A stretch of 64,000 nucleotides of DNA, taken from a virus. Taxonomy: Duplodnaviria > Heunggongvirae > Uroviricota > Caudoviricetes. Both the position numbers and the translations under genes were made by a program. Under the pieces are notes generated by a model. It saw only the letters and a list, made by a program, of their open reading frames with translations. It had not been told where the DNA came from and made no database searches. Where the stretch lies: IMG/VR virus record IMGVR_UViG_3300045988_009603; one strand, 5' to 3'. Positions 1 to 12,305 of this stretch are shown here, piece by piece (within the stretch, counting starts at the first letter, position 1; each line of letters begins with the position of its first letter).

Positions 1-178
1 CTTTGGAGATTACCTGCACAGTTTGAAAATGAATTTTCTCTTTGGAGTTCAAAATTCTCTCTACAGATTTCTCTACAGAACTCTACCTGCACAATCCTGA
101 AATAAAAAAGCCCTCCTTACCTGAAAAATTTACCAGATAAGAAAGGCTTAGCCTATTGTGAATATTCTACAGAGTTTC

Positions 179-964
179 TTAGTTCTTTGCGTCTAAGAAG
201 GTAACTTCCGGTGAAGAGAAGACCGTCTCGATATCCTCATCAGTTCTTGCATAGATATATGTATCTGCATCACTACCAAACGTTACAGCTATCCTGTGAT
301 TGCTCTTCGACAGGTGGGTAACTAGAGCGTTACTTAGAGACATCTTCTCAACCGGAGGGTTACTTTGATGTATCTTACCTTTTCTTCGTCTGAAGAGGGT
401 AACTGCATCCTCTGTGAACGTTACTACACCTGCAAAGTATTCTGGTTCACAGTAGTTATTCCAACCTGAGCGTAACTTGTGGTACATCTCTCCTTCGTAG
501 ACATACAGATAAACATCTACACTCTTCATCACCTGATTAATGATAACTGTGACGGCTTGAGGGTCTAGCCCACCGATACCTGCACCAATCATAGGTAACC
601 CAACTTTCTTCAACTGATTAACTTCACAGTATCTGTTAAGCTGTTTCAAAGATGACTCTAAAGCACTGTATCTGGCATCTTTACCAGTCTTAAGCTGAGT
701 GTAAAGATTAGCTATACGACCTTGTTTTAAACGTGCTACAGAGAAATTACCTAGTAAATTTTCACAGGGTTTGTGACCTATACCACCTGCATACAGATAA
801 ACTTCTGTATCAGTCTCATATGCTTTTGGGTAAAGTTTAGAAATCTTGTCAGCGATACCTGCACCCATTAAGTTCATACAGTTGCAACCGTGACCAATAA
901 TATCAAACTTACCTTTATCAAATGCGTCAAAGATATCACCTTTGATGATTTTTACAATACCCAT
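179..964 (-). CDS. TARG1-like macro domain protein (ADP-ribose processing) with unassigned C-terminal extension
   Basis: N-terminal ~155 aa carry macro-domain signatures KGDIF, GHGCNCMNLMGAGIA and LPMIGAGIGGLD, collinear with TARG1/OARD1-type macro domains; C-terminal ~100 aa unassigned. Confidence 0.55.
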   Translation of the reverse strand: MGIVKIIKGDIFDAFDKGKFDIIGHGCNCMNLMGAGIADKISKLYPKAYETDTEVYLYAGGIGHKPCENLLGNFSVARLKQGRIANLYTQLKTGKDARYSALESSLKQLNRYCEVNQLKKVGLPMIGAGIGGLDPQAVTVIINQVMKSVDVYLYVYEGEMYHKLRSGWNNYCEPEYFAGVVTFTEDAVTLFRRRKGKIHQSNPPVEKMSLSNALVTHLSKSNHRIAVTFGSDADTYIYARTDEDIETVFSSPEVTFLDAKN

Positions 965-965
965 A

Positions 966-1166
966 CTAATAATGCTCCCAACGTTGCATGTCTTCGGATG
1001 GTTTTACACGGTTACCTTCATGGTCTACATAACCTGCACCACAACCTTCACAGATAACTGGCATAGCCGAGCCAGCTTCAAACTCTTCTTTGGTGAAGAG
1101 ACCTTTCAAGTCCCCTGTATCAACACCAAAATGTTCTATTGCACACTTCTTGCAGAAATCAGCCAT
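966..1166 (-). CDS. small zinc-ribbon protein
   Basis: Start taken at internal Met (MADFCKKC...); CxxC...CEGCG cysteine pairs; tracked ORF 966..1244 trimmed. Confidence 0.3.
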   Translation of the reverse strand: MADFCKKCAIEHFGVDTGDLKGLFTKEEFEAGSAMPVICEGCGAGYVDHEGNRVKPSEDMQRWEHY

Positions 1167-1689: not shown

Positions 1690-1959
1690 TTACTTCCTCG
1701 TTTTAAGAACTGCTAAGATTTCTTTAGAATCTGGTAAGAACCATGTGTAGTGATTCTCTTTGATTTCTGGATGAGTGTCAACCTTTATTTTGCACTCTTT
1801 ACCAACATGCTTAAGCTGTGCTGTGACACCTTGCATAAAGATATGACACATCACATTATCCATAATGGTTGGTGAGAAATCAATTCGCATATAAGTTTCT
1901 TTTGGTCGTGGCAACAGTAAGTAACCTTCTACATAGAAAGTGTCTTGATTCTCTGTCAT
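1690..1959 (-). CDS. hypothetical protein
   Basis: 89 aa ORF, 3 nt after upstream gene. Confidence 0.35.
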   Translation of the reverse strand: MTENQDTFYVEGYLLLPRPKETYMRIDFSPTIMDNVMCHIFMQGVTAQLKHVGKECKIKVDTHPEIKENHYTWFLPDSKEILAVLKTRK

Positions 1960-2225
1960 TGCTGCTTATTCCCTAATAAAATCATGTCAATAAGGTTATT
2001 AGTTTTAATTGTACACTGGTAAAAGCCGTCACGGTAGAACTCAAGTGCTGCTGCTACATCACTACCTGTGTTGCCTTTGATGATATACTGTGACTCTTCT
2101 TGAGTGTACTTATCACCCTCACTTACTTGGGAGTTTTTGAATGTACTGTTCACTTTGTTCGTTGAACACCCTGACATAATTATCAGTAACACAAACATTA
2201 TAAAACTCTGGCTTAGTTTTTTCAT
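1956..2225 (-). CDS. o-spanin-like outer membrane lipoprotein
   Basis: Signal peptide with lipobox LLIIMSGC; gene start embedded in the 3' end of the preceding membrane-anchored ORF in another frame (overlapped spanin architecture). Confidence 0.45.
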   Translation of the reverse strand: MKKLSQSFIMFVLLIIMSGCSTNKVNSTFKNSQVSEGDKYTQEESQYIIKGNTGSDVAAALEFYRDGFYQCTIKTNNLIDMILLGNKQQ

Positions 2226-2466
2226 ATGTTAGTACCTCTTTTGTATGCTTATTCTTAGCAAGCACATCTTTCAAATCATTTTTGTAATTGGTGCTCAATG
2301 TAACTAATCCTTCCTGATAAGCATCTTTAGCAACACTTATGAGCTTTTGATTGTTTAGCTCAGTTTCAGCAACTTGGTAGTCTCTGTAAGAGTACCCTCC
2401 CCAGACACCCGCCCCAACTAAGAAAACAATTATGAAAGTAGCTTGACAGAACTCTTTAAATGTCAT
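2119..2466 (-). CDS. i-spanin-like inner membrane protein
   Basis: N-terminal TM helix (FIIVFLVGAGVWGG) followed by charged, probably helical periplasmic segment; overlaps the lipoprotein ORF; AGGAG RBS. Confidence 0.45.
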   Translation of the reverse strand: MTFKEFCQATFIIVFLVGAGVWGGYSYRDYQVAETELNNQKLISVAKDAYQEGLVTLSTNYKNDLKDVLAKNKHTKEVLTYEKTKPEFYNVCVTDNYVRVFNEQSEQYIQKLPSK

Positions 2467-2483: not shown

Positions 2484-2506
2484 TGAAAAAGGCTCCCGAA
2501 GGAGCC
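2484..2506 (-). terminator. intrinsic terminator (GGCTCC-CGAA-GGAGCC hairpin plus U-run on minus strand)
   Basis: Perfect 6 bp stem with tetraloop followed by A-run on plus strand. Confidence 0.5.
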
Positions 2507-2518
2507 TGTATCTTAACC

Positions 2519-2983
2519 TTAACTGAGGACTTTAGCAAGGACATTTGCAGCCATCGAAGAAGCTTTTGCAGCAGCAGCTACCCCAGCTTTGACAGTGCTA
2601 TCCTTAATAGCAGATACCGTTGCAGCATCAGTAAAGAGATAAGTAGTTGTTTTATAACCACTTGTAAAGGAAAGCATAAGAGCAGTTTCCAGATTGAAAG
2701 AGCGATACGGAGCACCTTCTTTAACGATACCTTCAGCACCTAACTCTGAAGCCATACCCATATCATAGATAGTCATCAGGTTTTCTTTGTGTGCAGTCGT
2801 TGAACCAGCACCTTTGACGTGTTTCTTAACATTCAGAAGAGCACGGTATTCTCGGATGTTACCGTCTGCTTTTACATTGACAGCACGGAAGATTTTACCC
2901 TCAAAGTTGCTTTTGATAATGTTACGAACTACTTCAGATTTGTTTGCCGTAACGTCCAGTGCTACCGTAATGATATTGTTCAT
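2519..2983 (-). CDS. hypothetical protein
   Basis: ORF 2519..2998 in track; start probably at second Met (MNNIITVALDV). Confidence 0.35.
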   Translation of the reverse strand: MNNIITVALDVTANKSEVVRNIIKSNFEGKIFRAVNVKADGNIREYRALLNVKKHVKGAGSTTAHKENLMTIYDMGMASELGAEGIVKEGAPYRSFNLETALMLSFTSGYKTTTYLFTDAATVSAIKDSTVKAGVAAAAKASSMAANVLAKVLS

Positions 2984-2994
2984 AAGTTTTTCTC

Positions 2995-3690
2995 TCAATG
3001 TTTAACTAACATGGTTTTAATGTGTGGAAGGATTCTGTTTACCTTCTGAACATTCTTCTCTGTATCTTCTATAAAGCATACTATATTAAAGTAAGGAAGA
3101 ATGCAAGACTGAATCATCCTAACTTTTAAACTTTCTGCACTTATAGAGTTAGTTCCAAAACCACGCATGAAAAGCATGTAATCATGCTCTATGTTATGCC
3201 TTAAAAACATCTCAGTAGGTATTCTCTGAGATTCACCTCTTGCTGTCAAGAGTCCAATGGCAGCATGATTAGCAATTGCATCAATAATACTAAAAACATA
3301 CGTTGGTTTTGCTCTTACAGAGTCAAGAAGATTAGTGTACTGTGAGAATGACCCATCAGTCAATTCCGTTGAGCAATCTTCGTGATTAAAATTTGTAAGA
3401 ACACCATCAATATCTGCTAAGATGAGGTTACCTTTTTCTACAAGGTCTTTATTGACTATGACTAAACTGTCACGTCTTACACCTACAGTTTGTCCAGTCT
3501 CTTTGTCCACAACGTTCACAATTGGTTGTGATGTGTGGAACTCTTCAAGTGAACATACAACTTCTCTTGCAGTGTCTTCAAAATCCCTGCACTGTTCTGG
3601 AGTCCATATACAGGAATCAAGACCTAACTCATGAGGATGCAAGTCGTAAGCATGACACAGTACTTCATCAGACTTTCTTAATTTTTTCAT
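2995..3690 (-). CDS. HAD-superfamily phosphatase-like protein (possible nucleotidase)
   Basis: Motif LILADIDGVLTNF (DxDG HAD motif I) and downstream GLLTARGE; N-terminal ~90 aa unassigned. Confidence 0.4.
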   Translation of the reverse strand: MKKLRKSDEVLCHAYDLHPHELGLDSCIWTPEQCRDFEDTAREVVCSLEEFHTSQPIVNVVDKETGQTVGVRRDSLVIVNKDLVEKGNLILADIDGVLTNFNHEDCSTELTDGSFSQYTNLLDSVRAKPTYVFSIIDAIANHAAIGLLTARGESQRIPTEMFLRHNIEHDYMLFMRGFGTNSISAESLKVRMIQSCILPYFNIVCFIEDTEKNVQKVNRILPHIKTMLVKH

Positions 3691-4317: not shown

Positions 4318-5427
4318 TTAGATTTCACGTTTACGTTGAGAAATGAGTTCACCAGCAGTACCAACGATGACATGCAAAGCTTCAGTCTTACCATCCCACG
4401 CTTTCAGCACTTTACGCTGATTATCAACGATTGCTGCAACTTCATAACGGGATGAACGCATCTTCATATCGTTGTAATCAGTTGGAACAGATACAACATC
4501 TCGTGGATGGACACGAACCTTCAGGATTGTATCACCTGAGAAGCAACGAACATAATCCCAAGCACCAACATGAAGACCCTGAGAGCAAGTTACGTTACGG
4601 TTGTTATCAACCATCCAACGTGGCATTTCTACAATATTACCTAAATCATTAGGTACTTTATAGGTGTGGGAGTCAACCAACTTGCCTTCACGAGTAGAGA
4701 CTTTCTTCCAACCAATGATGTAACCTTCTTCATCAATTTCAACATCAAGGTGAGATACGAATCCCCAAAGTTGTTCTACAGAATCTTTAGATGGGTTTTC
4801 CATCAGTTTTTCGAAGAACATTACAAGTCGTTCAAAACCTTTATCACCAGTCTTCATCATGTGAAGAATACGGTCAACCAGAGTAGAACGCATCTCAACA
4901 GCACCGTAGAATAACTTGTCACCTTTGATTGTGATAGCACCCTGAGTGAAGTTTTCGATAGACTTACGAATGTTCATCAGTTCAAAAGCTTTCTTGTACT
5001 CACCACCTACAACAGCCATTACGATTTCTTTGTAGTTTGGATGGGTAGACTCAACGATTTCAGAATCTGCACCGAAAGTCATGATAACAGAATCGCCAGT
5101 AATCATATACTCAATCTGGTTACCATTCTGCATAGCTTCGTGTAGTTTATTTACTGGAGCTTCCTGTACAGCCTCTTTAACAACCTTTTCAACTGGTTTT
5201 CCAGCTTTCTTTTTAACTGATTTAGCAACTTGCTTCAAAGTCTTCGTAGCTGGTTTAGAAGCTACCTTTTTCTTACCTTTTAAGGTTGCTTCATGACGCT
5301 CTACAGCACGACCAACTGAACGGGTTGAAGTATTGAACTTCTGTGCAATAGCTGTTTTAGTCAGCTTACCTTCTTTCACCAGTTCGTAAATTTCTGCGTC
5401 AATCTGTGCTTTAGTTTTAATAGTCAT
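4318..5427 (-). CDS. rIIB: rIIB-like protein
   Basis: Call rests on position immediately downstream of the rIIA-like gene and similar size; no diagnostic motif recognised. Confidence 0.4.
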   Translation of the reverse strand: MTIKTKAQIDAEIYELVKEGKLTKTAIAQKFNTSTRSVGRAVERHEATLKGKKKVASKPATKTLKQVAKSVKKKAGKPVEKVVKEAVQEAPVNKLHEAMQNGNQIEYMITGDSVIMTFGADSEIVESTHPNYKEIVMAVVGGEYKKAFELMNIRKSIENFTQGAITIKGDKLFYGAVEMRSTLVDRILHMMKTGDKGFERLVMFFEKLMENPSKDSVEQLWGFVSHLDVEIDEEGYIIGWKKVSTREGKLVDSHTYKVPNDLGNIVEMPRWMVDNNRNVTCSQGLHVGAWDYVRCFSGDTILKVRVHPRDVVSVPTDYNDMKMRSSRYEVAAIVDNQRKVLKAWDGKTEALHVIVGTAGELISQRKREI

Positions 5428-5506: not shown

Positions 5507-7873
5507 TTAATCGTAAATTGTAGTCCCTTCTGGAACACACTTCACATCAAAGCCTAAGAATTTACTCACTTCAATGGGTGACACTTTATTCCAATCTAAA
5601 TGAGAAAGCAAGAAGTTTTCTTGTTTTCTTTTTGAAAGATAGTTTGTCACCTTAATAATCATACGGTCACCAGCTTTCTTAATTTTCTTGTATAGCTTTG
5701 TATCGTTGTCAAGGCATTCTTTCAAAGTTTGCAACCGACTAATAGTGTAGGTGTATGCAAACGGTGCAGCAACGTATTGGATTTTACCAAACATTGCCTC
5801 AACAGCATCTTCATTACCTTCTAAGAAGATAGTTTTGTTTGTGTCTCGTGAATAGCAATAGCCACGAGAAATCTTCTTGTTATTGAACGTAAAGTTTCTG
5901 GCAATAATCCAACTGCTTGTAAGGTCTAGAACACCATTCATATAGATACGTGTCATATACCTGTTATGATTAATCCAGTGAACATCAGTTAAGCTGTCGT
6001 TCAAGAGTTTCTCATCTACTTCAATCCAGTCTTCTGGTATCTTTTTCCAATTTGCTTTTCGGAAAACATAGACTGTCTTTTCAATGACATTGGCAACTGA
6101 CTTAGCTACATCTTCTGGAGACGAGCAAAAACATTCACCATCAACAGTATCACCTACTGCCTTGATATAAAGTTGAGGCTCTTCAATTGTGTCTAAGTCT
6201 TCTGACACCTCTTTATAGGAAGCTACACCTTCTGCTGGAACAGCTTTCCAGAGTTTTACAACACCTCTTACAGCTTCTTTACGCTGATAATGATGTTCCT
6301 TATCAGACATCTTCACAATCTTTAACAAGCTTTTATCAAGTTTGTGCAGATTGATTAGGTCGTCTAACTCTTTTTCAGTCGAGAATACAAAGACAATACC
6401 ATTATATCTGTGAAACAGACTTGACTCACTGGCATAGTCTCGACATGCACCACGCAAGATTTGGTTGCGTCCTACAGTCTTCTCAGTACCATTTTTATTG
6501 CGACGGTCATTGATAACAAACAAAAACTGTTCAATTTGGCTTTTGCGCATTGCGCCAAAGATATTGAACATACTTGCCTCTTGAGTGTAGGAAAGTGCTG
6601 TTGCACGAATCTTACTTTCTAAAGAGTTGAACTTAACATAAGCAACTGGATTATAAAGATAATCTACTTTAGGGATGTTGTTTCCGTTCCTATCAACCTT
6701 AATATTACCTTTACCATCACGTTCATAAATAACTGAGCCGTCTTCTGCGTAGATAATTCCACGACGAATGTTTAGTAATTCTTCTTCCAGAGAATCAAGC
6801 TTAACACCACCCCACTCTAGCTTTGGACACACAGCATTAAACATCTCTCGTGAGTTCAAACGTAACTCAGCATAAGCCTGTGCAGCATCCATGAGTGTAG
6901 GTTGGCTATTAACTTTCTTGATAACATCCTTTGTAATGGCTTCAGTTATCTTTTTAGTAGCCTCAATGATAACATTTTTTGTCGTGTCATTCATCTGTAA
7001 TGCTTCACGAGAAGCTGCGATAGCAACTGAACCAATAGGCATATAGATGTTTACAAGGTCTACGCTCCTACGGAAAAATTCTGGCAAGACTTTGAAGAAA
7101 TCATCACCAAGTAATGCTTCCATGTTAACAGGGTATGCAATGTTACCCATCACCACATTAAACTCTGTCCTGTTACCACTAGAACGCCAACTTTGCTTAT
7201 GAATCATAGCATCATAAACACCTTCTTCACGGGCAATGACGTTCATATCTGCTAATACATCGTCATACTCGATATTGCTTTCTGGTTTTACAGCAAAGTA
7301 TGAGTATACGTGACCAGCTTCTTCAAAGAATTTTGAGATACGATGGTCAGCAACTGCTACACGTACAGCTAAACCATTAGGTTCTTTTGTTGGATTGGTG
7401 GTCAGCTTAGTTACTTGAGGGATACCATTCTCAAGATAAACAGAGTACTTATTAACAACACCATCAACATAACTGGACACTGTGAATGACTGAGCAATTG
7501 CAAATGGGGATTTTGAGCCGATACCCATTGCACCAATGTAGTCATTAGAGTCATTCTTCGTAGAAGCCCCGTAGTTTAGATACAAACTCATAACTTTATC
7601 ATGAGTCAATCCAGTTCCAAAATCACGAACTTCAAAGTAAGGCTCAAAACGAGTAGGTAAATGCACATGGAACGGGATGTTCTCTTTTCCAGCTTCTTTC
7701 TGAGCATCCACTGCGTTACATGACAGTTCACGAATAACTGCCCTTTCTTTAAAGGTGTATACACCAGAACTCAAAAGGCTGAACATTTCGGGTGTCATTG
7801 TAATCTGTGCTTGAGACGTCTCTAAAGAAGTTGAACTCTTAATCACTTCTGCGTGGTCATTTACCATGCGCAT
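5507..7873 (-). CDS. rIIA: rIIA-like protein (HATPase_c-type ATPase domain)
   Basis: N-terminal GHKL-type motifs (ELSCNAVDA, DFGTGL, GAMGIGSKS); 788 aa. Confidence 0.6.
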   Translation of the reverse strand: MRMVNDHAEVIKSSTSLETSQAQITMTPEMFSLLSSGVYTFKERAVIRELSCNAVDAQKEAGKENIPFHVHLPTRFEPYFEVRDFGTGLTHDKVMSLYLNYGASTKNDSNDYIGAMGIGSKSPFAIAQSFTVSSYVDGVVNKYSVYLENGIPQVTKLTTNPTKEPNGLAVRVAVADHRISKFFEEAGHVYSYFAVKPESNIEYDDVLADMNVIAREEGVYDAMIHKQSWRSSGNRTEFNVVMGNIAYPVNMEALLGDDFFKVLPEFFRRSVDLVNIYMPIGSVAIAASREALQMNDTTKNVIIEATKKITEAITKDVIKKVNSQPTLMDAAQAYAELRLNSREMFNAVCPKLEWGGVKLDSLEEELLNIRRGIIYAEDGSVIYERDGKGNIKVDRNGNNIPKVDYLYNPVAYVKFNSLESKIRATALSYTQEASMFNIFGAMRKSQIEQFLFVINDRRNKNGTEKTVGRNQILRGACRDYASESSLFHRYNGIVFVFSTEKELDDLINLHKLDKSLLKIVKMSDKEHHYQRKEAVRGVVKLWKAVPAEGVASYKEVSEDLDTIEEPQLYIKAVGDTVDGECFCSSPEDVAKSVANVIEKTVYVFRKANWKKIPEDWIEVDEKLLNDSLTDVHWINHNRYMTRIYMNGVLDLTSSWIIARNFTFNNKKISRGYCYSRDTNKTIFLEGNEDAVEAMFGKIQYVAAPFAYTYTISRLQTLKECLDNDTKLYKKIKKAGDRMIIKVTNYLSKRKQENFLLSHLDWNKVSPIEVSKFLGFDVKCVPEGTTIYD

Positions 7874-8798: not shown

Positions 8799-10580
8799 TT
8801 AAAGCTGCTTGTCAATATTATTTCGAATATCACCAAGAGATGTGTAACCGAACTGCTCAGAGTCACTAAAGACTAAACGTAAAGCACAAGCTGGATGTTC
8901 AAGCACATCTGCAAAGCTCTGGAATCCATAGCCATCTACAGCTTGCAGCTTATCACCATCCCACATAGGTGCTACACCACCAAAAGCAGACTTCTTAACA
9001 CCACTATCTGTTTTAGGGTCTTTTGCAAGCATAATCTCTTTACCGCCAATGCTTGCAAGAGTTGCTTTGACAGCAAATGCAAAGGTGTCACGAGTCATGT
9101 ACTGGTAAGTGTAAGAACCTACACCAAACACTACGTTAGAGCTTGCAAAACCCATTTCATACAAACGCTTCAAGATTTCGTTTGCACGTTCCAACGTGAT
9201 AGAGTCACCATAAATAAGTCCGATGTGCTCATCCAGTACTTTAAAACCTTTAGAGTTGATAGTTCCCCCAAAGATGTTATACAGTGTCTTGATAGCTCCA
9301 TCAATCTCTGCTACAGGACGTGTTACAACGTTTGCAGAACCAACCATATAAGCGTTTTTCAACATCACTGTATCAGCAACTTCAAAGTCTTCTCTGTCAA
9401 CAACCATTTCGTAGCCTTCTGACAGTAGCCACCCAGCAATACCATAGTTGATGTTTTCAAGCTTCATGTTCAGAACAGCATTCAACATTGTGTCGCTGGC
9501 TTCCAGCTTGCTTAGGTGTTCGTAATAAGATTTTTTAGCGCACTCTAAATGGATTGCTTTGTATCCTGTGACAATATGTACAGGGTCTCCAGAGTCAGGA
9601 CGGATTACCAGTTTACCATCACGTTCCATAATCTCTTTACGAAGTGCTGGTAAGATTTCTGATACAGTTCTCCAGAAATTATAAGTGTCTGAAACAACAC
9701 TTGCAATACCAGTTGGGTAAGTTTCTGTTAAGAAACGACGGAAGGTTTGTAACTCACCTTTAAAGCGTCTTTCTTCTTCAACCAACTCGTTACCACCTTC
9801 CCAAGCAATGTTTGCACACATTACAGAGTGTTCAGTGGCTGGTACAGAACCACCAATATCAGAGATTGGGTAAGATTGTCCGTAGATGCGTTTAGCTGTA
9901 TATACAGCAGGGAAGCTATCAGTCCCTTTAAAGCTGGTTAAGTGGCCTACAGCGTTAAATGCGTCATCGGTAAAGCCAGACATACCACGCATAGCAAAGT
10001 CATGGCACTGATAAGGTAAATGCAAGGTATTGTCGCAAGTAAGGTCAGCCCACTTCTTACAGATACGTTTGTAGTGCAATGCAATAGTTGCAATGGTACA
10101 AGCCTTCCAAATCTCAGCAGAGAAAGCATCTTCAAGATACCCCGCTACCCAATGGAAACCTGAAACAGTGTTCTGGAAGATAATCATTGGTACACGCATA
10201 GGGACAACTGTGCCTTCTTCTACAGCGTATACTTCAACTGGTAGATAACCTAAGTCGTGAAGTGCTTCCCAATGTTCTCGACCAATAGCATCTTTACCCA
10301 GAACACCGTTCATGACTTCTAAGATTTCGTCAATTGCTTCTTTTTTGTCACGTTCAAAGAAAGTGGCGTTCCAATGGTCTATCAAGTAATCTTTAACGAA
10401 ACGTTGAATACCAAAAGCCACTACACCGTCAATTGCTAAAGGACTGTTAAACCATTTATCACTACGTGGTGTCAGGTTCAACATAAGATATTGCGTAGCA
10501 TCTGGATACTGATATACATGTGATGCCTTGTAAGCATCTGCATTAAGACCTGCTGGTACTGCATAAAGTGATTTAGTCAT
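8799..10580 (-). CDS. nadV: nicotinamide phosphoribosyltransferase (NAMPT/NadV)
   Basis: 593 aa; length and overall conservation typical of NAMPT family; adjacent to prs. Confidence 0.75.
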   Translation of the reverse strand: MTKSLYAVPAGLNADAYKASHVYQYPDATQYLMLNLTPRSDKWFNSPLAIDGVVAFGIQRFVKDYLIDHWNATFFERDKKEAIDEILEVMNGVLGKDAIGREHWEALHDLGYLPVEVYAVEEGTVVPMRVPMIIFQNTVSGFHWVAGYLEDAFSAEIWKACTIATIALHYKRICKKWADLTCDNTLHLPYQCHDFAMRGMSGFTDDAFNAVGHLTSFKGTDSFPAVYTAKRIYGQSYPISDIGGSVPATEHSVMCANIAWEGGNELVEEERRFKGELQTFRRFLTETYPTGIASVVSDTYNFWRTVSEILPALRKEIMERDGKLVIRPDSGDPVHIVTGYKAIHLECAKKSYYEHLSKLEASDTMLNAVLNMKLENINYGIAGWLLSEGYEMVVDREDFEVADTVMLKNAYMVGSANVVTRPVAEIDGAIKTLYNIFGGTINSKGFKVLDEHIGLIYGDSITLERANEILKRLYEMGFASSNVVFGVGSYTYQYMTRDTFAFAVKATLASIGGKEIMLAKDPKTDSGVKKSAFGGVAPMWDGDKLQAVDGYGFQSFADVLEHPACALRLVFSDSEQFGYTSLGDIRNNIDKQL

Positions 10581-10626: not shown

Positions 10627-11526
10627 TTAATCAAGGTTTGCTACAGTAACTTGACCATAATGTGTTAAACCACGGTCTTTAGCTTCCCCTAAAGAGTTTG
10701 TAGTGTAGATGTGGTCAATACCATTGTCAAGAAGGTTTTCAACCCCTTTAGAGAAGATACCATGTGTTACATAGAGTTCCACACGTTTTGCACCTGCTTC
10801 ACGAAGATGTTTAGCTGCTTCTATGAAGGTTCGACCGCCATCACAGATGTCGTCGAGAATCATAACAGTTTTATCGGTCAAATCAACATCATCAAGGATT
10901 CGCATACCAGTAATTTCACCAGTTTTGAGGTTACGTACTTTAGACATTGTGATGTATGGCTTATCCACCTCTTTAGCAGTTTCTGCAATCTTCTTAGAAG
11001 CACCTGCATCTGGGGCTACTAAGTAATCAACCAGTGGGTCATTTGCATAGTGGACTGCAATTTCATTTTGAGGAATACTTTGGAAGCAGTTAAACAGGTT
11101 ATCTGGTACATAACTGTGAGGGTCAACTGCACAGACTGCACCAAACCCCATTGCATTGACCTGTTTAGCAAAAACCTTTAAAGCTGCTGCATCACCTTTA
11201 AACATGTGACGGTCATATCGTGCATTTGGTAAGTAGTAAAAAATGACAGTCTTTAAGGCATAGTCATGAGGGACTAAATCATCAATTGCTTCTTTAGCAA
11301 GTGCCACAGCAAACAATGTGTCCTTGTCATAACCTTTCACAATAATAATCACATTGTTGATAGACGATGCTGCATAAGCAGTAAAATCAACAAGCTCTTG
11401 TGAAAAATGTCCACCAATCTCACCAGAAGGGAATTGGATGATGTTAAACTCTTCTTCATGAGTTCCTTTAGTCGGTGAATGAACTGTAACACGGATAGAT
11501 GTTTTCATAGTTTCTCTCTTAGTCAA
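10627..11526 (-). CDS. prs: ribose-phosphate pyrophosphokinase (PRPP synthetase)
   Basis: 299 aa; PRPP-binding loop VMILDDICDGGRTF; typical Prs length. Confidence 0.75.
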   Translation of the reverse strand: MTKRETMKTSIRVTVHSPTKGTHEEEFNIIQFPSGEIGGHFSQELVDFTAYAASSINNVIIIVKGYDKDTLFAVALAKEAIDDLVPHDYALKTVIFYYLPNARYDRHMFKGDAAALKVFAKQVNAMGFGAVCAVDPHSYVPDNLFNCFQSIPQNEIAVHYANDPLVDYLVAPDAGASKKIAETAKEVDKPYITMSKVRNLKTGEITGMRILDDVDLTDKTVMILDDICDGGRTFIEAAKHLREAGAKRVELYVTHGIFSKGVENLLDNGIDHIYTTNSLGEAKDRGLTHYGQVTVANLD

Positions 11527-11797
11527 AAGTTACGTTTGTTACTGCCATTGCAGATTTGCATTTTGCAGGGTCTACAACGTGATAAAGTACACTACAGTTA
11601 CCTGTGCTGTCTGGTACAGGCTTTACCCATTGATGCTTTATAGTTGGCTCTCCTAAGTCTTTGTAAGAACCATCTGTAAAGTTGTTTACCATCTCAAGTG
11701 CAATTGGTTCTGGAACATGACCACGTATCATGTACATCTCACAACCATTACCACCTTCACTGACTAATGGTAAAATCTCCCACTTTTCTTTAGCCAT
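11519..11797 (-). CDS. hypothetical protein
   Basis: 92 aa ORF. Confidence 0.35.
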   Translation of the reverse strand: MAKEKWEILPLVSEGGNGCEMYMIRGHVPEPIALEMVNNFTDGSYKDLGEPTIKHQWVKPVPDSTGNCSVLYHVVDPAKCKSAMAVTNVTFD

Positions 11798-12305
11798 TGT
11801 AAGTTGCCCTATAAACTGTCTCGAACTTCAACAGGAGAGATATTGCCAAATCTGTATAGTTGTTGTCAAGCACATCTGGCATATTATTTTTGATATATTT
11901 CTCTTGCTCTTCATAGGTCATCTTAGGGGTGCTTAAAAGATTATCCCCTTGCTTCTGGTTATCAAGTTTAGTCTGGATAAACCAGTTTGCACAGTGGTGC
12001 TCACCACCCTTTGTAACAGGTTTGTGGTGGCCTAATGTGAAGGATTGACTACCTGTATATCTGCAAAGTTTATTGAGTACTGTAATGGTGTTCTTCACAA
12101 CAAAACATTCATACAGGTTGTCTATGGTGTAGTATGGGTAATATCGGAATAATACTCTTTCACGAGTACTCTCACGATTCCAGAGAATCATGTGATTGGA
12201 GTTGGAAGGGTCATATTGGTGGGAGTCAATGAACTCTTGACGTTCCTCAAAGCTGAGCCTTAACACTGACATTGCAGCCGAACGTTTCAGGTTTGACAGG
12301 TACAT
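11790..12305 (-). CDS. hypothetical protein with HNH-like His-rich motif
   Basis: LGHHKPVTKGGEHHCANW resembles the HH..P..GG..N core of HNH nucleases; weak. Confidence 0.3.
   Translation of the reverse strand: MYLSNLKRSAAMSVLRLSFEERQEFIDSHQYDPSNSNHMILWNRESTRERVLFRYYPYYTIDNLYECFVVKNTITVLNKLCRYTGSQSFTLGHHKPVTKGGEHHCANWFIQTKLDNQKQGDNLLSTPKMTYEEQEKYIKNNMPDVLDNNYTDLAISLLLKFETVYRATYNG

What the first reader, a model, noticed from the sequence alone, without database searches (positions are those of the whole stretch)
179..964. TARG1-like macro domain protein with an unassigned C-terminal domain
The N-terminal 155 aa align motif-for-motif with TARG1/OARD1-type macro domains (KGDIF..., GHGCNCMNLMGAGIA, LPMIGAGIGGLD). 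That class removes ADP-ribose from proteins and, as in the antitoxin of DNA ADP-ribosylating toxin systems, from DNA. A phage copy near the NAD+ salvage genes could reverse ADP-ribosylation imposed by host defence, or process ADP-ribose-derived products. The extra ~100 aa C-terminal region has no motif I recognise.
Basis: partly seen in the sequence, partly recalled or inferred. Interest (0 to 1): 0.6.

Follow-up and report, generated by a model that had tools for sequence, protein, structure and literature searches.

The report
Felix O1 macro-domain anti-defence enzyme
This gene of a Felix O1-like phage encodes an ADP-ribose-processing (macro-domain) enzyme whose relatives help phages undo host ADP-ribose-based defences; here it is fused to a fast-evolving extra domain that resembles nothing known.

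Summary
ORF 179..964 (minus strand, 261 aa) encodes an N-terminal macro domain (Pfam E=1e-7; best solved matches TARG1, DarG and Poa1p) plus a ~105-aa C-terminal domain with no detectable relatives.

The window is a Felixounavirus. The protein is 97% identical to Bas63 gp95, and the nearby "NAD+ salvage genes" are the experimentally validated NARP1 enzymes Adps and Namat.

"TARG1-like" is right for fold and class, but not motif-for-motif. TARG1's catalytic K84 and D125 are Q90 and G131 here. The protein belongs to a phage branch with Gln at that position. That branch includes T4 Tk.4 (AdfM, shown genetically to counter DarTG2) and the NARP1-linked Adpp (an ADPR-1''-phosphate phosphatase that counters aRES). 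Sequence and structure cannot decide between them; context slightly favours the AdfM-like role.

Verdict: a new variant of a known kind, of moderate interest. A Bas63 gene 95 deletion makes it directly testable.

The parts
179..964 (-). Complete CDS (261 aa plus stop). It is the orthologue of Bas63 gp95, annotated 'putative phosphatase', at 97% identity.
497..964 (-). Macro domain, aa 1-156, of the TARG1/DarG/Poa1p (ALC1-like) class, in the Gln-type phage branch shared with T4 Tk.4/AdfM and NARP1-linked Adpp.
881..892 (-). H25-G-C-N28 motif. H25 aligns with Adpp H24 and Poa1p H23. N28 aligns with PhiKZ AdfM N23. Both residues are invariant across the 23-member family.
851..868 (-). M33-G-A-G-I-A38, the first glycine-rich ADP-ribose (diphosphate) binding loop. 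It is invariant or nearly invariant in the family.
695..697 (-). Q90, invariant within the Y-T-Q motif. It occupies the position of TARG1 K84, DarG K80 and SCO6735 Q85.
563..586 (-). G127-A-G-I-G-G-L-D134, the second glycine-rich loop. G131 occupies the position of TARG1 D125.
182..496 (-). Orphan C-terminal domain, aa 157-261: helix 158-167, six beta-strands, helix 242-249. The conserved linker residues are N170, P174 and G179, plus Y236.
108..149 (-). Terminator-like hairpin (17 pairs followed by a T-run) 30 nt after the stop codon. The gene ends a transcription unit, and several relatives annotate a terminator at this position.
966..1166 (-). Context: a 66-aa CxxC...CxxC ORF whose TAG stop lies 1 nt before the macro ATG. 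It is conserved in Felixounavirus, Mooglevirus and Suspvirus but has no homologue upstream of the macro gene in Pectobacterium phage Wc4-1.
8799..10580 (-). Context: Namat (nicotinamide ADPR-transferase of NARP1), 97% identical to Bas63 gp80.
10627..11526 (-). Context: Adps (ADPR pyrophosphokinase of NARP1), 78% identical to Bas63 gp79. The true start is probably the ATG at 11508.

Best explanation
The gene encodes a catalytically competent macro-domain hydrolase of a phage-specific, Gln-type branch of the TARG1/DarG/Poa1p class. It binds an ADP-ribosyl group and cleaves whatever is attached at ribose C1'', releasing free ADP-ribose (general claim, about 0.85). Its most likely job in infection is the one shown genetically for its nearest characterised homologue, T4 Tk.4/AdfM: removing ADP-ribose that a host DarT2-type toxin places on thymidines of phage single-stranded DNA, so that replication can proceed (specific claim, about 0.4). 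The released ADP-ribose is itself a substrate of this phage's own NARP1 pathway (Adps plus Namat), which rebuilds NAD+. The C-terminal ~105 aa form a separate, rigidly attached beta-rich domain that is unique to Ounavirinae-type phages. By inference only, it is a partner- or substrate-specificity module analogous in role, but not in sequence, to the DarT-binding C-terminal domain of DarG. Shown here: the ORF, the fold, residue conservation, orthology to Bas63 gp95, the NARP1 context, purifying selection on both halves, and the orphan status of the C-terminal domain. Inferred: enzymatic activity, substrate, anti-defence role, and the role of the C-terminal domain.
For: Macro fold and class are supported. 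DarG profiles are the only hits in NCBIfam and PADLOC, at E about 1e-13. The residues mutated to inactivate relatives are invariant here: H25 (Adpp H24A; Poa1p H23A, PDB 6lfs), N28 (PhiKZ AdfM N23A) and Q90 (SCO6735 Q85, which is essential in an enzyme that cleaves thymidine-linked DNA ADP-ribose). The macro half is under strong purifying selection, with dN/dS 0.056. The nearest characterised homologue by BLAST is T-even Tk.4 at 82-84 bits and 34% identity, against 52-57 bits for Gary/Javier Adpp and 26 bits for PhiKZ AdfM. Tk.4 and the Felix-type proteins share the short loop after the Gln, whereas all six NARP1-linked macros carry insertions there. The gene is stand-alone, as in T4. It lies 14 genes from NARP1 behind a terminator-like site, and its closest macro-only relatives are also not next to NARP1. 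T4 delta-tk.4 becomes sensitive to DarTG2. For the C-terminal domain: pLDDT is 82-92 in the full-length model and pTM is 0.89, falling to pLDDT 74 when the domain is modelled alone; dN/dS is 0.24; it evolves much faster than the macro half, for example 18% against 53% identity within the same protein; and a divergent allele exists within the same genus.
Against: No activity has been measured for this protein or for Bas63 gp95. PhageMaP of Bas63 reports nothing for gene 95, and its panel lacked DarTG and aRES. The mechanism of T4 AdfM is itself inferred from genetics alone. The biochemically proven AdfM (PhiKZ gp104) keeps the DarG-type Lys and is only distantly similar, at 26 bits. The aromatic residue that stacks on thymine in DarG (W83, three residues after K80) has no counterpart here, where the sequence after Q90 is L-K-T. 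Tk.4 and Adpp are as similar to each other (77 bits) as either is to this protein. Nearest-PDB patterns do not track function within the clade. T4 and PhiKZ AdfM work without any extra domain, so the C-terminal domain is not explained by this role. Its net charge ranges from -5 to +5 across homologues, which argues against a generic DNA-binding surface.
Confidence: 0.4

Rival explanations
1. Adpp-like role. The enzyme is an ADP-ribose-1''-phosphate phosphatase. When a host RES-type defence (aRES) phosphorolyses NAD+ to nicotinamide plus ADPR-1''P, which NARP1 cannot use, the enzyme removes the 1''-phosphate and so supplies ADPR to the phage's Adps and Namat for NAD+ resynthesis. It might also recycle ADPR-cyclic-phosphate decay products of ADPR-PP. 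A dual-substrate enzyme that does this and also removes DarT2 adducts is included under this rival.
For: The phage carries the validated NARP1; its Namat is 97% and its Adps 78% identical to Bas63 gp80 and gp79. Adpp proteins belong to the same Gln-type clade and share the N-x-Y-(T/G)-Q motif and the catalytic His, Adpp H24 aligning to H25 here. One NARP1-linked macro (JG004) scores nearly as high as Tk.4, at 75 bits. Poa1p, the founding ADPR-1''P phosphatase, is as close in fold as TARG1 (Foldseek E=3.6e-10). aRES occurs in E. coli, Klebsiella, Enterobacter and Salmonella, the hosts of these phages. A clade member (P0030) is fused to a cREC_REC 'cyclic-phosphate processing' domain, pointing to soluble ADPR-phosphate substrates. 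Other NARP1 phages recruit enzymes that funnel ADPR derivatives into the pathway (RyDEP).
Against: The gene is not in the NARP1 operon. It is 14 genes and about 8 kb away and is not counted among the 15% of NARP1 loci with an associated macro; no Felixounavirus appears in Table S1. Similarity to the one biochemically tested Adpp is lower than to Tk.4, at 52 against 82 bits. All six sampled NARP1-linked macros carry a loop insertion that this protein lacks. The closest macro-only relatives are not NARP1-linked. Most members of the clade are in phages such as T4, which does not carry NARP1 to my knowledge (not tested here); the distribution is.
Confidence: 0.3
2. Protein or RNA de-ADP-ribosylase. 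The enzyme removes mono-ADP-ribose from proteins (Glu/Asp-linked, as TARG1 does) or from RNA (for example CmdT-type mRNA ADP-ribosylation), acting either against host ADP-ribosyltransferase defences or to tune modifications made by the phage itself.
For: TARG1 is the top sequence and fold match. SCO6735, which also has Gln at the catalytic position, cleaves Glu/Asp-linked protein ADP-ribose as well as thymidine-linked DNA ADP-ribose. An mRNA ADP-ribosyltransferase defence against T-even phages exists (CmdTAC, PMC11618068, listed).
Against: TARG1's K84/D125 dyad is absent. No ADP-ribosyltransferase gene was noted next to this gene, though the rest of the window was not searched for one. No homologue in this clade has been shown to act on protein or RNA.
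Confidence: 0.1
3. Non-catalytic binder or sponge. The macro domain only binds an ADP-ribose-containing immune signal (for example Thoeris cADPR isomers or His-ADPR) and sequesters it, with the C-terminal domain mediating oligomerisation.
For: Macro domains can act as pure readers. Thoeris type II effectors sense His-ADPR through a macro domain. Phage sponges for ADPR-derived signals are known. The canonical TARG1/DarG catalytic Lys is missing.
Against: All residues required for catalysis in active relatives (H25, N28, Q90) are invariant, and the macro half evolves under very strong constraint. The characterised members of the same clade are enzymes or behave as such.
Confidence: 0.05

Closest known systems
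T4 Tk.4 = AdfM (anti-DarT factor, macrodomain), bioRxiv 10.1101/2025.11.20.689424
   Same: Both belong to the same Gln-type macro clade: 34-35% identity over about 160 aa, E about 1e-24, with shared N-L-Y-T-Q and H-G-C-N-C motifs and the same loop length after the Gln. Both are stand-alone genes in a virulent enterobacterial myovirus rather than part of a NARP1 operon.
   Different: Tk.4 is about 155 aa with no C-terminal domain. T4 has no NARP1, to my knowledge (not tested here). The Felix-type protein has a distinct insertion at aa 55-70 and lacks the aromatic residue that directly follows the Gln in Tk.4.
Adpp, the NARP1-associated ADPR-1''-phosphate phosphatase (Vibrio phage Gary), bioRxiv 10.64898/2026.01.28.702374
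   Same: Same Gln-type clade, with the catalytic His conserved (H24 aligning to H25). It is encoded by a phage that also has Adps and Namat.
   Different: Identity is only 27-30%. Adpp genes lie within two genes of NARP1, whereas this gene is 14 genes away. Adpp proteins have a longer loop after the Gln and no C-terminal domain.
Human TARG1/OARD1 (PDB 4J5R/4J5S)
   Same: It is the best solved match by sequence (profile E=6.9e-12) and by fold (TM 0.86 on the target). The ADP-ribose-binding glycine loops are shared.
   Different: The catalytic K84 and D125 are replaced by Q90 and G131. TARG1 is a single-domain protein.
DarG antitoxin of DarTG2 (PDB 5M31/5M3E/5M3I; NCBIfam NF048014)
   Same: The macro domains are homologous (E about 1e-13 to the DarG profiles; TM 0.81-0.84). 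Both have a two-domain layout with an N-terminal macro domain and a C-terminal extra domain.
   Different: The score is 48.5 bits against the equivalog cut-off of 250, and only profile positions 2-152 of 338 match. There is no similarity to DarG's DarT-binding domain. K80 is replaced by Q90, there is no counterpart of W83, and there is no adjacent DarT gene.
SCO6735 of Streptomyces coelicolor (PDB 5E3B)
   Same: It is an ALC1/TARG1-like macrodomain with Gln (Q85) at the catalytic-Lys position. It hydrolyses thymidine-linked DNA ADP-ribose.
   Different: It did not appear among PDB sequence hits for this protein or its family profile, although it does for Gary Adpp and Tk.4. It is a bacterial, single-domain protein.
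PhiKZ gp104 AdfM (Cell Rep 2026, PMC13309987)
   Same: It is a phage macro-domain protein that removes DarT2 ADP-ribose from DNA, and the conserved Asn (N23 aligning to N28) is shared.
   Different: It retains the DarG-type Lys (P-T-K), lacks the His, and scores only 26 bits against this protein. It is imported into the phage nucleus and has no C-terminal domain.

Membership tests
Macro domain superfamily (Pfam PF01661) | Significant match to the family profile above the gathering threshold | tested here: met
   32.3 bits against a cut-off of 22, E=1e-7, covering aa 25-141 over profile positions 2-117 of 118.
Macro domain superfamily (Pfam PF01661) | Three-layer alpha/beta/alpha macro fold with two glycine-rich ADP-ribose-binding loops | tested here: met
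   The AF2 model has pLDDT 91 and superposes on TARG1, Poa1p and DarG with TM 0.77-0.87. The MGAGIA and GAGIGGLD loops are invariant or nearly so.
TARG1/OARD1-type hydrolase | Catalytic Lys (K84) that forms the lysyl-ADP-ribose intermediate | tested here: not met
   The position is Q90, invariant in all 23 family members. The role of K84 is taken from PMC9967889.
TARG1/OARD1-type hydrolase | Asp (D125) that resolves the intermediate | tested here: not met
   It aligns to G131 in the GAGIGGLD loop.
DarG antitoxin (NCBIfam NF048014 equivalog) | Full-length match above the equivalog cut-off, including the C-terminal DarT-binding domain | tested here: not met
   48.5 bits against a cut-off of 250, with only profile positions 2-152 of 338 matched. 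PADLOC DarG gives the same picture.
DarG antitoxin (NCBIfam NF048014 equivalog) | Catalytic K80 and an adjacent DarT toxin gene | tested here: not met
   Q90 occupies the K80 position. No DarT-like gene is among the neighbours in the window or in relatives.
AdfM (anti-DarT2 macro; T4 Tk.4 type) | Homology to Tk.4 with shared active-site motifs | tested here: met
   34-35% identity, E about 1e-24. The HGCNC and NLYTQ motifs and the loop length are shared.
AdfM (anti-DarT2 macro; T4 Tk.4 type) | Protects the phage from DarTG2 and removes thymidine-linked ADP-ribose from DNA | not testable with these tools
   This needs plaque assays and enzyme assays. No published data exist for Bas63 gene 95.
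Adpp (NARP1-AP phosphatase) | Macro gene located within two genes of an Adps/Namat pair (the operational definition in the paper) | tested here: not met
   It is 14 genes (about 8 kb) downstream of Namat in both the window and Bas63. No Felixounavirus appears in Table S1.
Adpp (NARP1-AP phosphatase) | Catalytic His (H24 in the Gary Adpp; H23 in Poa1p) | tested here: met
   H25 is invariant in the 23-member family. It is Gln in the more distant phiEa104 protein.
Adpp (NARP1-AP phosphatase) | Converts ADPR-1''P to ADPR and rescues NARP1 against aRES | not testable with these tools
   This needs LC-MS and infection assays.
PHROG 335 ('phosphatase') | Full-length match to the phage orthologous-group profile | tested here: met
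   E=3.1e-113, with aa 1-260 matching profile positions 53-312 of 422.

The most novel reading that the evidence does not exclude
The orphan C-terminal domain gives the enzyme a second, non-catalytic anti-defence function. In this reading it is a fast-evolving binding module that either captures a variable host defence protein (a DarT-like or RES-like NAD+-consuming effector, as DarG's own C-terminal domain captures DarT) or docks the hydrolase onto the phage's NARP1 enzymes or replisome. The protein would then be a bifunctional hub that funnels several defence-generated ADP-ribosyl products (DNA-ADPr, ADPR-1''P, and possibly His-ADPR) into NAD+ resynthesis. The domain would represent a new fold family of phage immune-evasion binders.
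Probability: 0.15. Interest if true: 0.65.

Novelty: new variant of a known kind. Interest (0 to 1): 0.38.

Why it matters
Felix O1-like phages are widely used for Salmonella and E. coli typing, biocontrol and therapy. Bas63 is the phage in which NARP1 was discovered, and it already has knockout tools. If its gene 95 turns out to be an AdfM-type or Adpp-type enzyme, this phage group would combine NAD+ reconstitution with removal of ADP-ribose adducts, which would help explain its broad host range against ADP-ribose and NAD+-based defences. The analysis also shows that the two recently named phage activities (AdfM of T4 and Adpp) sit in one Gln-type macro clade that cannot be split by sequence or nearest structure. 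A cross-test of substrates is therefore needed before either name is propagated in annotation; more than 2,700 phage records carry a homologue. The C-terminal domain is a conserved, selected orphan domain of about 100 aa, and its partner could reveal a new interaction in phage-host conflict.

Tried and rejected
1. Searching the 5.8-billion-protein word-indexed database with the C-terminal fragment alone and with its profile returned essentially nothing. It did not even return the known family, so the tool is insensitive for this short, divergent query. The exhaustive phmmer run is the meaningful negative.
2. The one outside hit in that run, P0040 (1072 aa, E=8e-4, six stretches), is a repeat protein matching 28 residues (…GAEADTYTFAAT…). 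I treat it as a chance match amplified by the repeats.
3. I tested whether the C-terminal domain resembles the aRES inhibitor aRad1. It does not (sequences).
4. I tested whether the C-terminal domain arose by fusion with the small gene that follows tk.4 in T-even phages (Tk.3). There is no alignment.
5. I tested whether the upstream, translationally coupled 66-aa CxxC ORF is a conserved partner. There is no homologue upstream of the macro gene in Pectobacterium phage Wc4-1.
6. I looked for a conserved basic surface on the C-terminal domain that would suggest DNA binding. Net charge ranges from -5 to +5.
7. I tried using the nearest solved structure to decide between AdfM and Adpp. The pattern is inverted for the two characterised proteins, so it is uninformative.
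8. Foldseek against afdb50 was not available.
9. Pfam scans of all 19 C-terminal sequences gave only single-member hits at E>0.02. The profile search against PDB sequences gave tetrathionate hydrolase at E=0.02 over 49 residues, which I treat as noise.
10. I looked for a published phenotype of Bas63 gene 95 in PhageMaP, HIDEN-SEQ, and the DarTG1 and aRES papers. There is none.
Full report
**1. What is there.**
Window 179..964 holds a 261-codon ORF on the minus strand, running from ATG to stop. A GGGAG Shine-Dalgarno-like sequence precedes the ATG, and the TAG stop of a 66-aa upstream ORF lies 1 nt before it. A 17-bp hairpin followed by a T-run sits at 149..108, 30 nt after the stop. Several relatives annotate a terminator at that position.

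**2. Which genome.**
The first 8 kb of the window is 95% identical to many Salmonella and Escherichia Felixounavirus genomes. Felix O1 itself matches the gene region at 91%.

The BASEL phage Bas63 (JohannRWettstein, MZ501086) has the same layout:
- gene 79 ('ribose-phosphate pyrophosphokinase') and gene 80 ('nicotinamide phosphoribosyltransferase');
- 14 further genes, including rIIA, rIIB, a PNK-like protein and the spanins;
- gene 95, annotated 'putative phosphatase'.

The window protein is 97% identical to gp95. The window's NAMPT-like protein is 97% identical to gp80, and the Prs-like protein is 78% identical to gp79. Genes 79 and 80 of Bas63 are the enzymes in which NARP1 was discovered: Adps makes ADPR-pyrophosphate from ADPR, and Namat converts that to NAD+ (bioRxiv 10.1101/2024.02.11.579819). 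They lie 8-10 kb upstream on the same strand, with a terminator-like site in between.

**3. The N-terminal half is a macro domain of the TARG1/DarG/Poa1p class.**
- Pfam Macro matches at E=1e-7, above the gathering score.
- PHROG 335 ('phosphatase') covers the full length at E=3e-113.
- Among PDB sequences, TARG1/OARD1 is best (1e-5 for the single sequence, 6.9e-12 for the family profile). M. tuberculosis and T. aquaticus DarG come next, and then Poa1p over the N-terminal third.
- NCBIfam and PADLOC return only DarG, at E about 1e-13. The score is far below the equivalog cut-off and covers only the macro part of the DarG profile.
- An AlphaFold2 model built on 23 homologues is confident (pLDDT 91.4, pTM 0.89). 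Its N-terminal half superposes equally well on TARG1, Poa1p and DarG (Foldseek E of 2-6e-10, TM 0.77-0.87 on the target). No hit extends beyond about 178 columns.

**4. It is not TARG1 motif-for-motif.**
In both the pairwise and the profile alignments, TARG1 K84 aligns to Q90 and D125 aligns to G131. K84 is the nucleophile that forms the lysyl-ADP-ribose intermediate, and D125 resolves that intermediate (residue roles from PMC9967889). Q90 is invariant in the family.

A multiple alignment with reference proteins shows the same N-x-[Y/H/F]-x-Q pattern in three groups:
- T-even Tk.4;
- the biochemically characterised Adpp of Vibrio phage Gary;
- five other NARP1-linked macro proteins taken from Table S1 of the aRES paper.

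Human TARG1 and PhiKZ gp104 (AdfM) instead have T-K. A Gln at this position has precedent. In SCO6735, Q85 is essential, and the enzyme cleaves thymidine-linked DNA ADP-ribose.

Other residues needed in relatives are invariant in this family:
- H25, which aligns with Adpp H24 (the inactivating mutant used in the aRES paper) and with Poa1p H23 (PDB 6lfs title);
- N28, which aligns with PhiKZ AdfM N23.

I therefore regard the protein as an active hydrolase of a Gln-type branch, not a TARG1 orthologue.

**5. What homologues do.**
- T4 tk.4 was the single hit in a transposon screen on DarTG2-expressing cells. A clean deletion made T4 sensitive, and the gene was named adfM. DNA de-ADP-ribosylation was inferred, not measured. 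An unrelated-looking Lys-type macro, PhiKZ gp104, was shown biochemically to remove DarT2 adducts.
- aRES defences phosphorolyse NAD+ to ADPR-1''P, which NARP1 cannot use. In 15% of NARP1 loci a macro gene lies within two genes of the pair. The one from Vibrio phage Gary (Adpp) converts ADPR-1''P to ADPR and restores NARP1 function.

Felixounavirus proteins are absent from that list, because the gene is 14 genes away from NARP1.

**6. Can the two roles be told apart for this protein?**
Only weakly.

In favour of the AdfM-like role:
- BLAST scores are 82-84 bits to Tk.4, against 75 bits to the JG004 NARP1-linked macro and 52-57 bits to Gary/Javier Adpp.
- The loop after the Gln has the same short length as in Tk.4, whereas all six NARP1-linked proteins carry insertions there.
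- The gene is stand-alone, and the closest macro-only relatives (P0024, P0028) are not next to Adps or Namat.

In favour of the Adpp-like role:
- The phage has NARP1.
- The catalytic His is conserved.
- aRES occurs in the hosts of these phages.
- A clade member is fused to a cREC_REC 'cyclic-phosphate processing' domain.

Two results show that sequence cannot settle the question. Tk.4 and Adpp are as similar to each other (77 bits) as either is to this protein. Under the same PDB search, the proven phosphatase is nearest to TARG1 and SCO6735, while the anti-DarT2 factor is nearest to BT1257 and the Poa1p phosphatase. Both reactions cleave a substituent at ribose C1'' and release ADPR, so one enzyme could do both. 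My estimates are: AdfM-like 0.4, Adpp-like or dual 0.3, protein or RNA de-ADP-ribosylation 0.1, non-catalytic binder 0.05.

**7. The C-terminal domain (aa 157-261).**
In the full-length model it consists of a helix (158-167), six beta-strands and a final helix, with block pLDDT of 82-92. Modelled alone, it keeps the same secondary-structure elements but falls to pLDDT 74. Together with the pTM of 0.89, this suggests it packs in a fixed way against the macro domain. I could not inspect coordinates or PAE, so that is inference.

It has no detectable relatives:
- There are no hits in Pfam, NCBIfam or PADLOC, and only single-member noise across 19 homologues.
- The best PDB profile hit has E=0.02 over 49 residues.
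- BFVD returns only the protein's own family, from phage SUSP2.
- phmmer over 1.84 billion representatives returns only the family plus a spurious repeat protein.

In the phage collection the domain is found only in Ounavirinae, in about 258 records. Identity is 84-97% in Felixounavirus, about 53% in Suspvirus and about 46% in Mooglevirus. The protein database adds about 15 more divergent two-domain homologues of 246-269 aa, including Pectobacterium phages Wc4-1 and Arno162, which share the same synteny. Only N170, P174, G179 and Y236 are invariant or nearly so.

The domain evolves much faster than the macro half. Mean column entropy is 2.18 against 1.15, and in P0009 identity is 18% against 53%. 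It is still under purifying selection: median dN/dS is 0.24 against 0.056 over 36 Felixounavirus pairs. Some Felixounaviruses (pSJ21, ECML-1) carry a strongly divergent allele at the same locus. Net charge varies from -5 to +5, so there is no conserved basic surface. The domain resembles neither aRad1, nor Tk.3, nor the C-terminal part of the DarG profile.

My working inference is a partner- or substrate-specificity module. This rests only on the pattern of a selected but rapidly diverging domain that is rigidly attached, and I give it low confidence.

**8. Published phenotypes.**
I found none for this protein. PhageMaP made a genome-wide Bas63 knockout library and screened 33 Gao-panel defences, which included neither DarTG nor aRES. 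It reports genes 77, 79, 80, 84, 85 and 130 as defence counters (genes 40 and 123 as triggers), not gene 95. The DarTG1 paper tested only other BASEL phages. The aRES paper does not mention BASEL phages.

**9. Verdict.**
The family is already annotated in hundreds of genomes as 'phosphatase' or 'macro domain protein' and forms a PHROG. Its macro half belongs to a clade with two freshly described anti-defence activities. The unexplained part is the orphan C-terminal domain.

I rate this a new variant of a known kind with moderate interest (0.38). It is directly testable in Bas63.

Noticed in passing
window 8799..10580 (-) and 10627..11526 (-): These are orthologues of the Bas63 NARP1 enzymes: Namat at 97% and Adps at 78% identity. 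Adps is notably more divergent than Namat and than the macro protein. The Bas63 protein starts at the window ORF's residue 7, so the true start is probably the ATG at 11508.
   Followed up: yes
window 966..1166 (-): A 66-aa ORF with two CxxC pairs (zinc-ribbon-like) whose TAG stop lies 1 nt before the macro ATG. A 201-nt gene sits in this position in Felixounavirus, Mooglevirus and Suspvirus. The ORF upstream of the macro gene in Pectobacterium phage Wc4-1 is not homologous.
   Followed up: partly
L005 (Salmonella phage pSJ21, OK539833) 2485-3264; also ECML-1: Within a genus that is otherwise about 90-95% identical, some phages carry a strongly divergent allele of this gene (macro dN 0.40, C-terminal dN 0.89 relative to the window). 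This suggests allelic replacement or recombination at the locus.
   Followed up: partly
L024 (Erwinia phage phiEa104) 1498-2280: The Kolesnikvirus counterpart is also 260 aa. It has Gln instead of the conserved His (H25 position), and its C-terminal half cannot be aligned with the Felix O1-type domain.
   Followed up: no
P0030 / L027 1250-2269: A metagenomic member of the same Gln-type macro clade is fused to a cREC_REC (PF20274, 'cyclic-phosphate processing receiver') domain. This is a different C-terminal partner, and it points to soluble ADPR-phosphate substrates.
   Followed up: partly
window 11790..12305 (-): A 171-aa ORF in the position and of the size of Bas63 gene 77, which PhageMaP reports as a GIY-YIG counter of the Ec67 retron. 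Pfam gave only a weak DUF7167 hit, and identity to gp77 was not checked.
   Followed up: no
window 4318..5427 (-) and 5507..7873 (-): rIIB-like and rIIA-like genes lie between NARP1 and the macro gene. PhageMaP reports the Bas63 orthologues (g84, g85) as co-essential against the qatABCD defence.
   Followed up: no
window 1956..2225 (-) and 2119..2466 (-): An overlapping pair that looks like o-spanin and i-spanin. The first has a lipoprotein signal (…LIIMSGC…), and both are annotated as spanins in Bas63 and pSJ21. They appear to share a transcription unit with the macro gene, bounded by the terminator-like sites at 2507..2490 and 149..108.
   Followed up: no
L025 (87-kb metagenomic phage contig) 6001-8196: A macro-only relative (P0028) lies two genes upstream of a reverse-transcriptase (RVT_1) gene, which is followed by an rIIA-like gene, on an Ounavirinae-sized contig.
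   Followed up: no
(Gary Adpp and T2 Tk.4 against the PDB): Nearest-structure patterns are the reverse of the assigned functions. The proven ADPR-1''P phosphatase is closest to TARG1 and SCO6735, and the anti-DarTG2 factor is closest to BT1257 and Poa1p. The names AdfM and Adpp may describe one promiscuous clade.
   Followed up: partly
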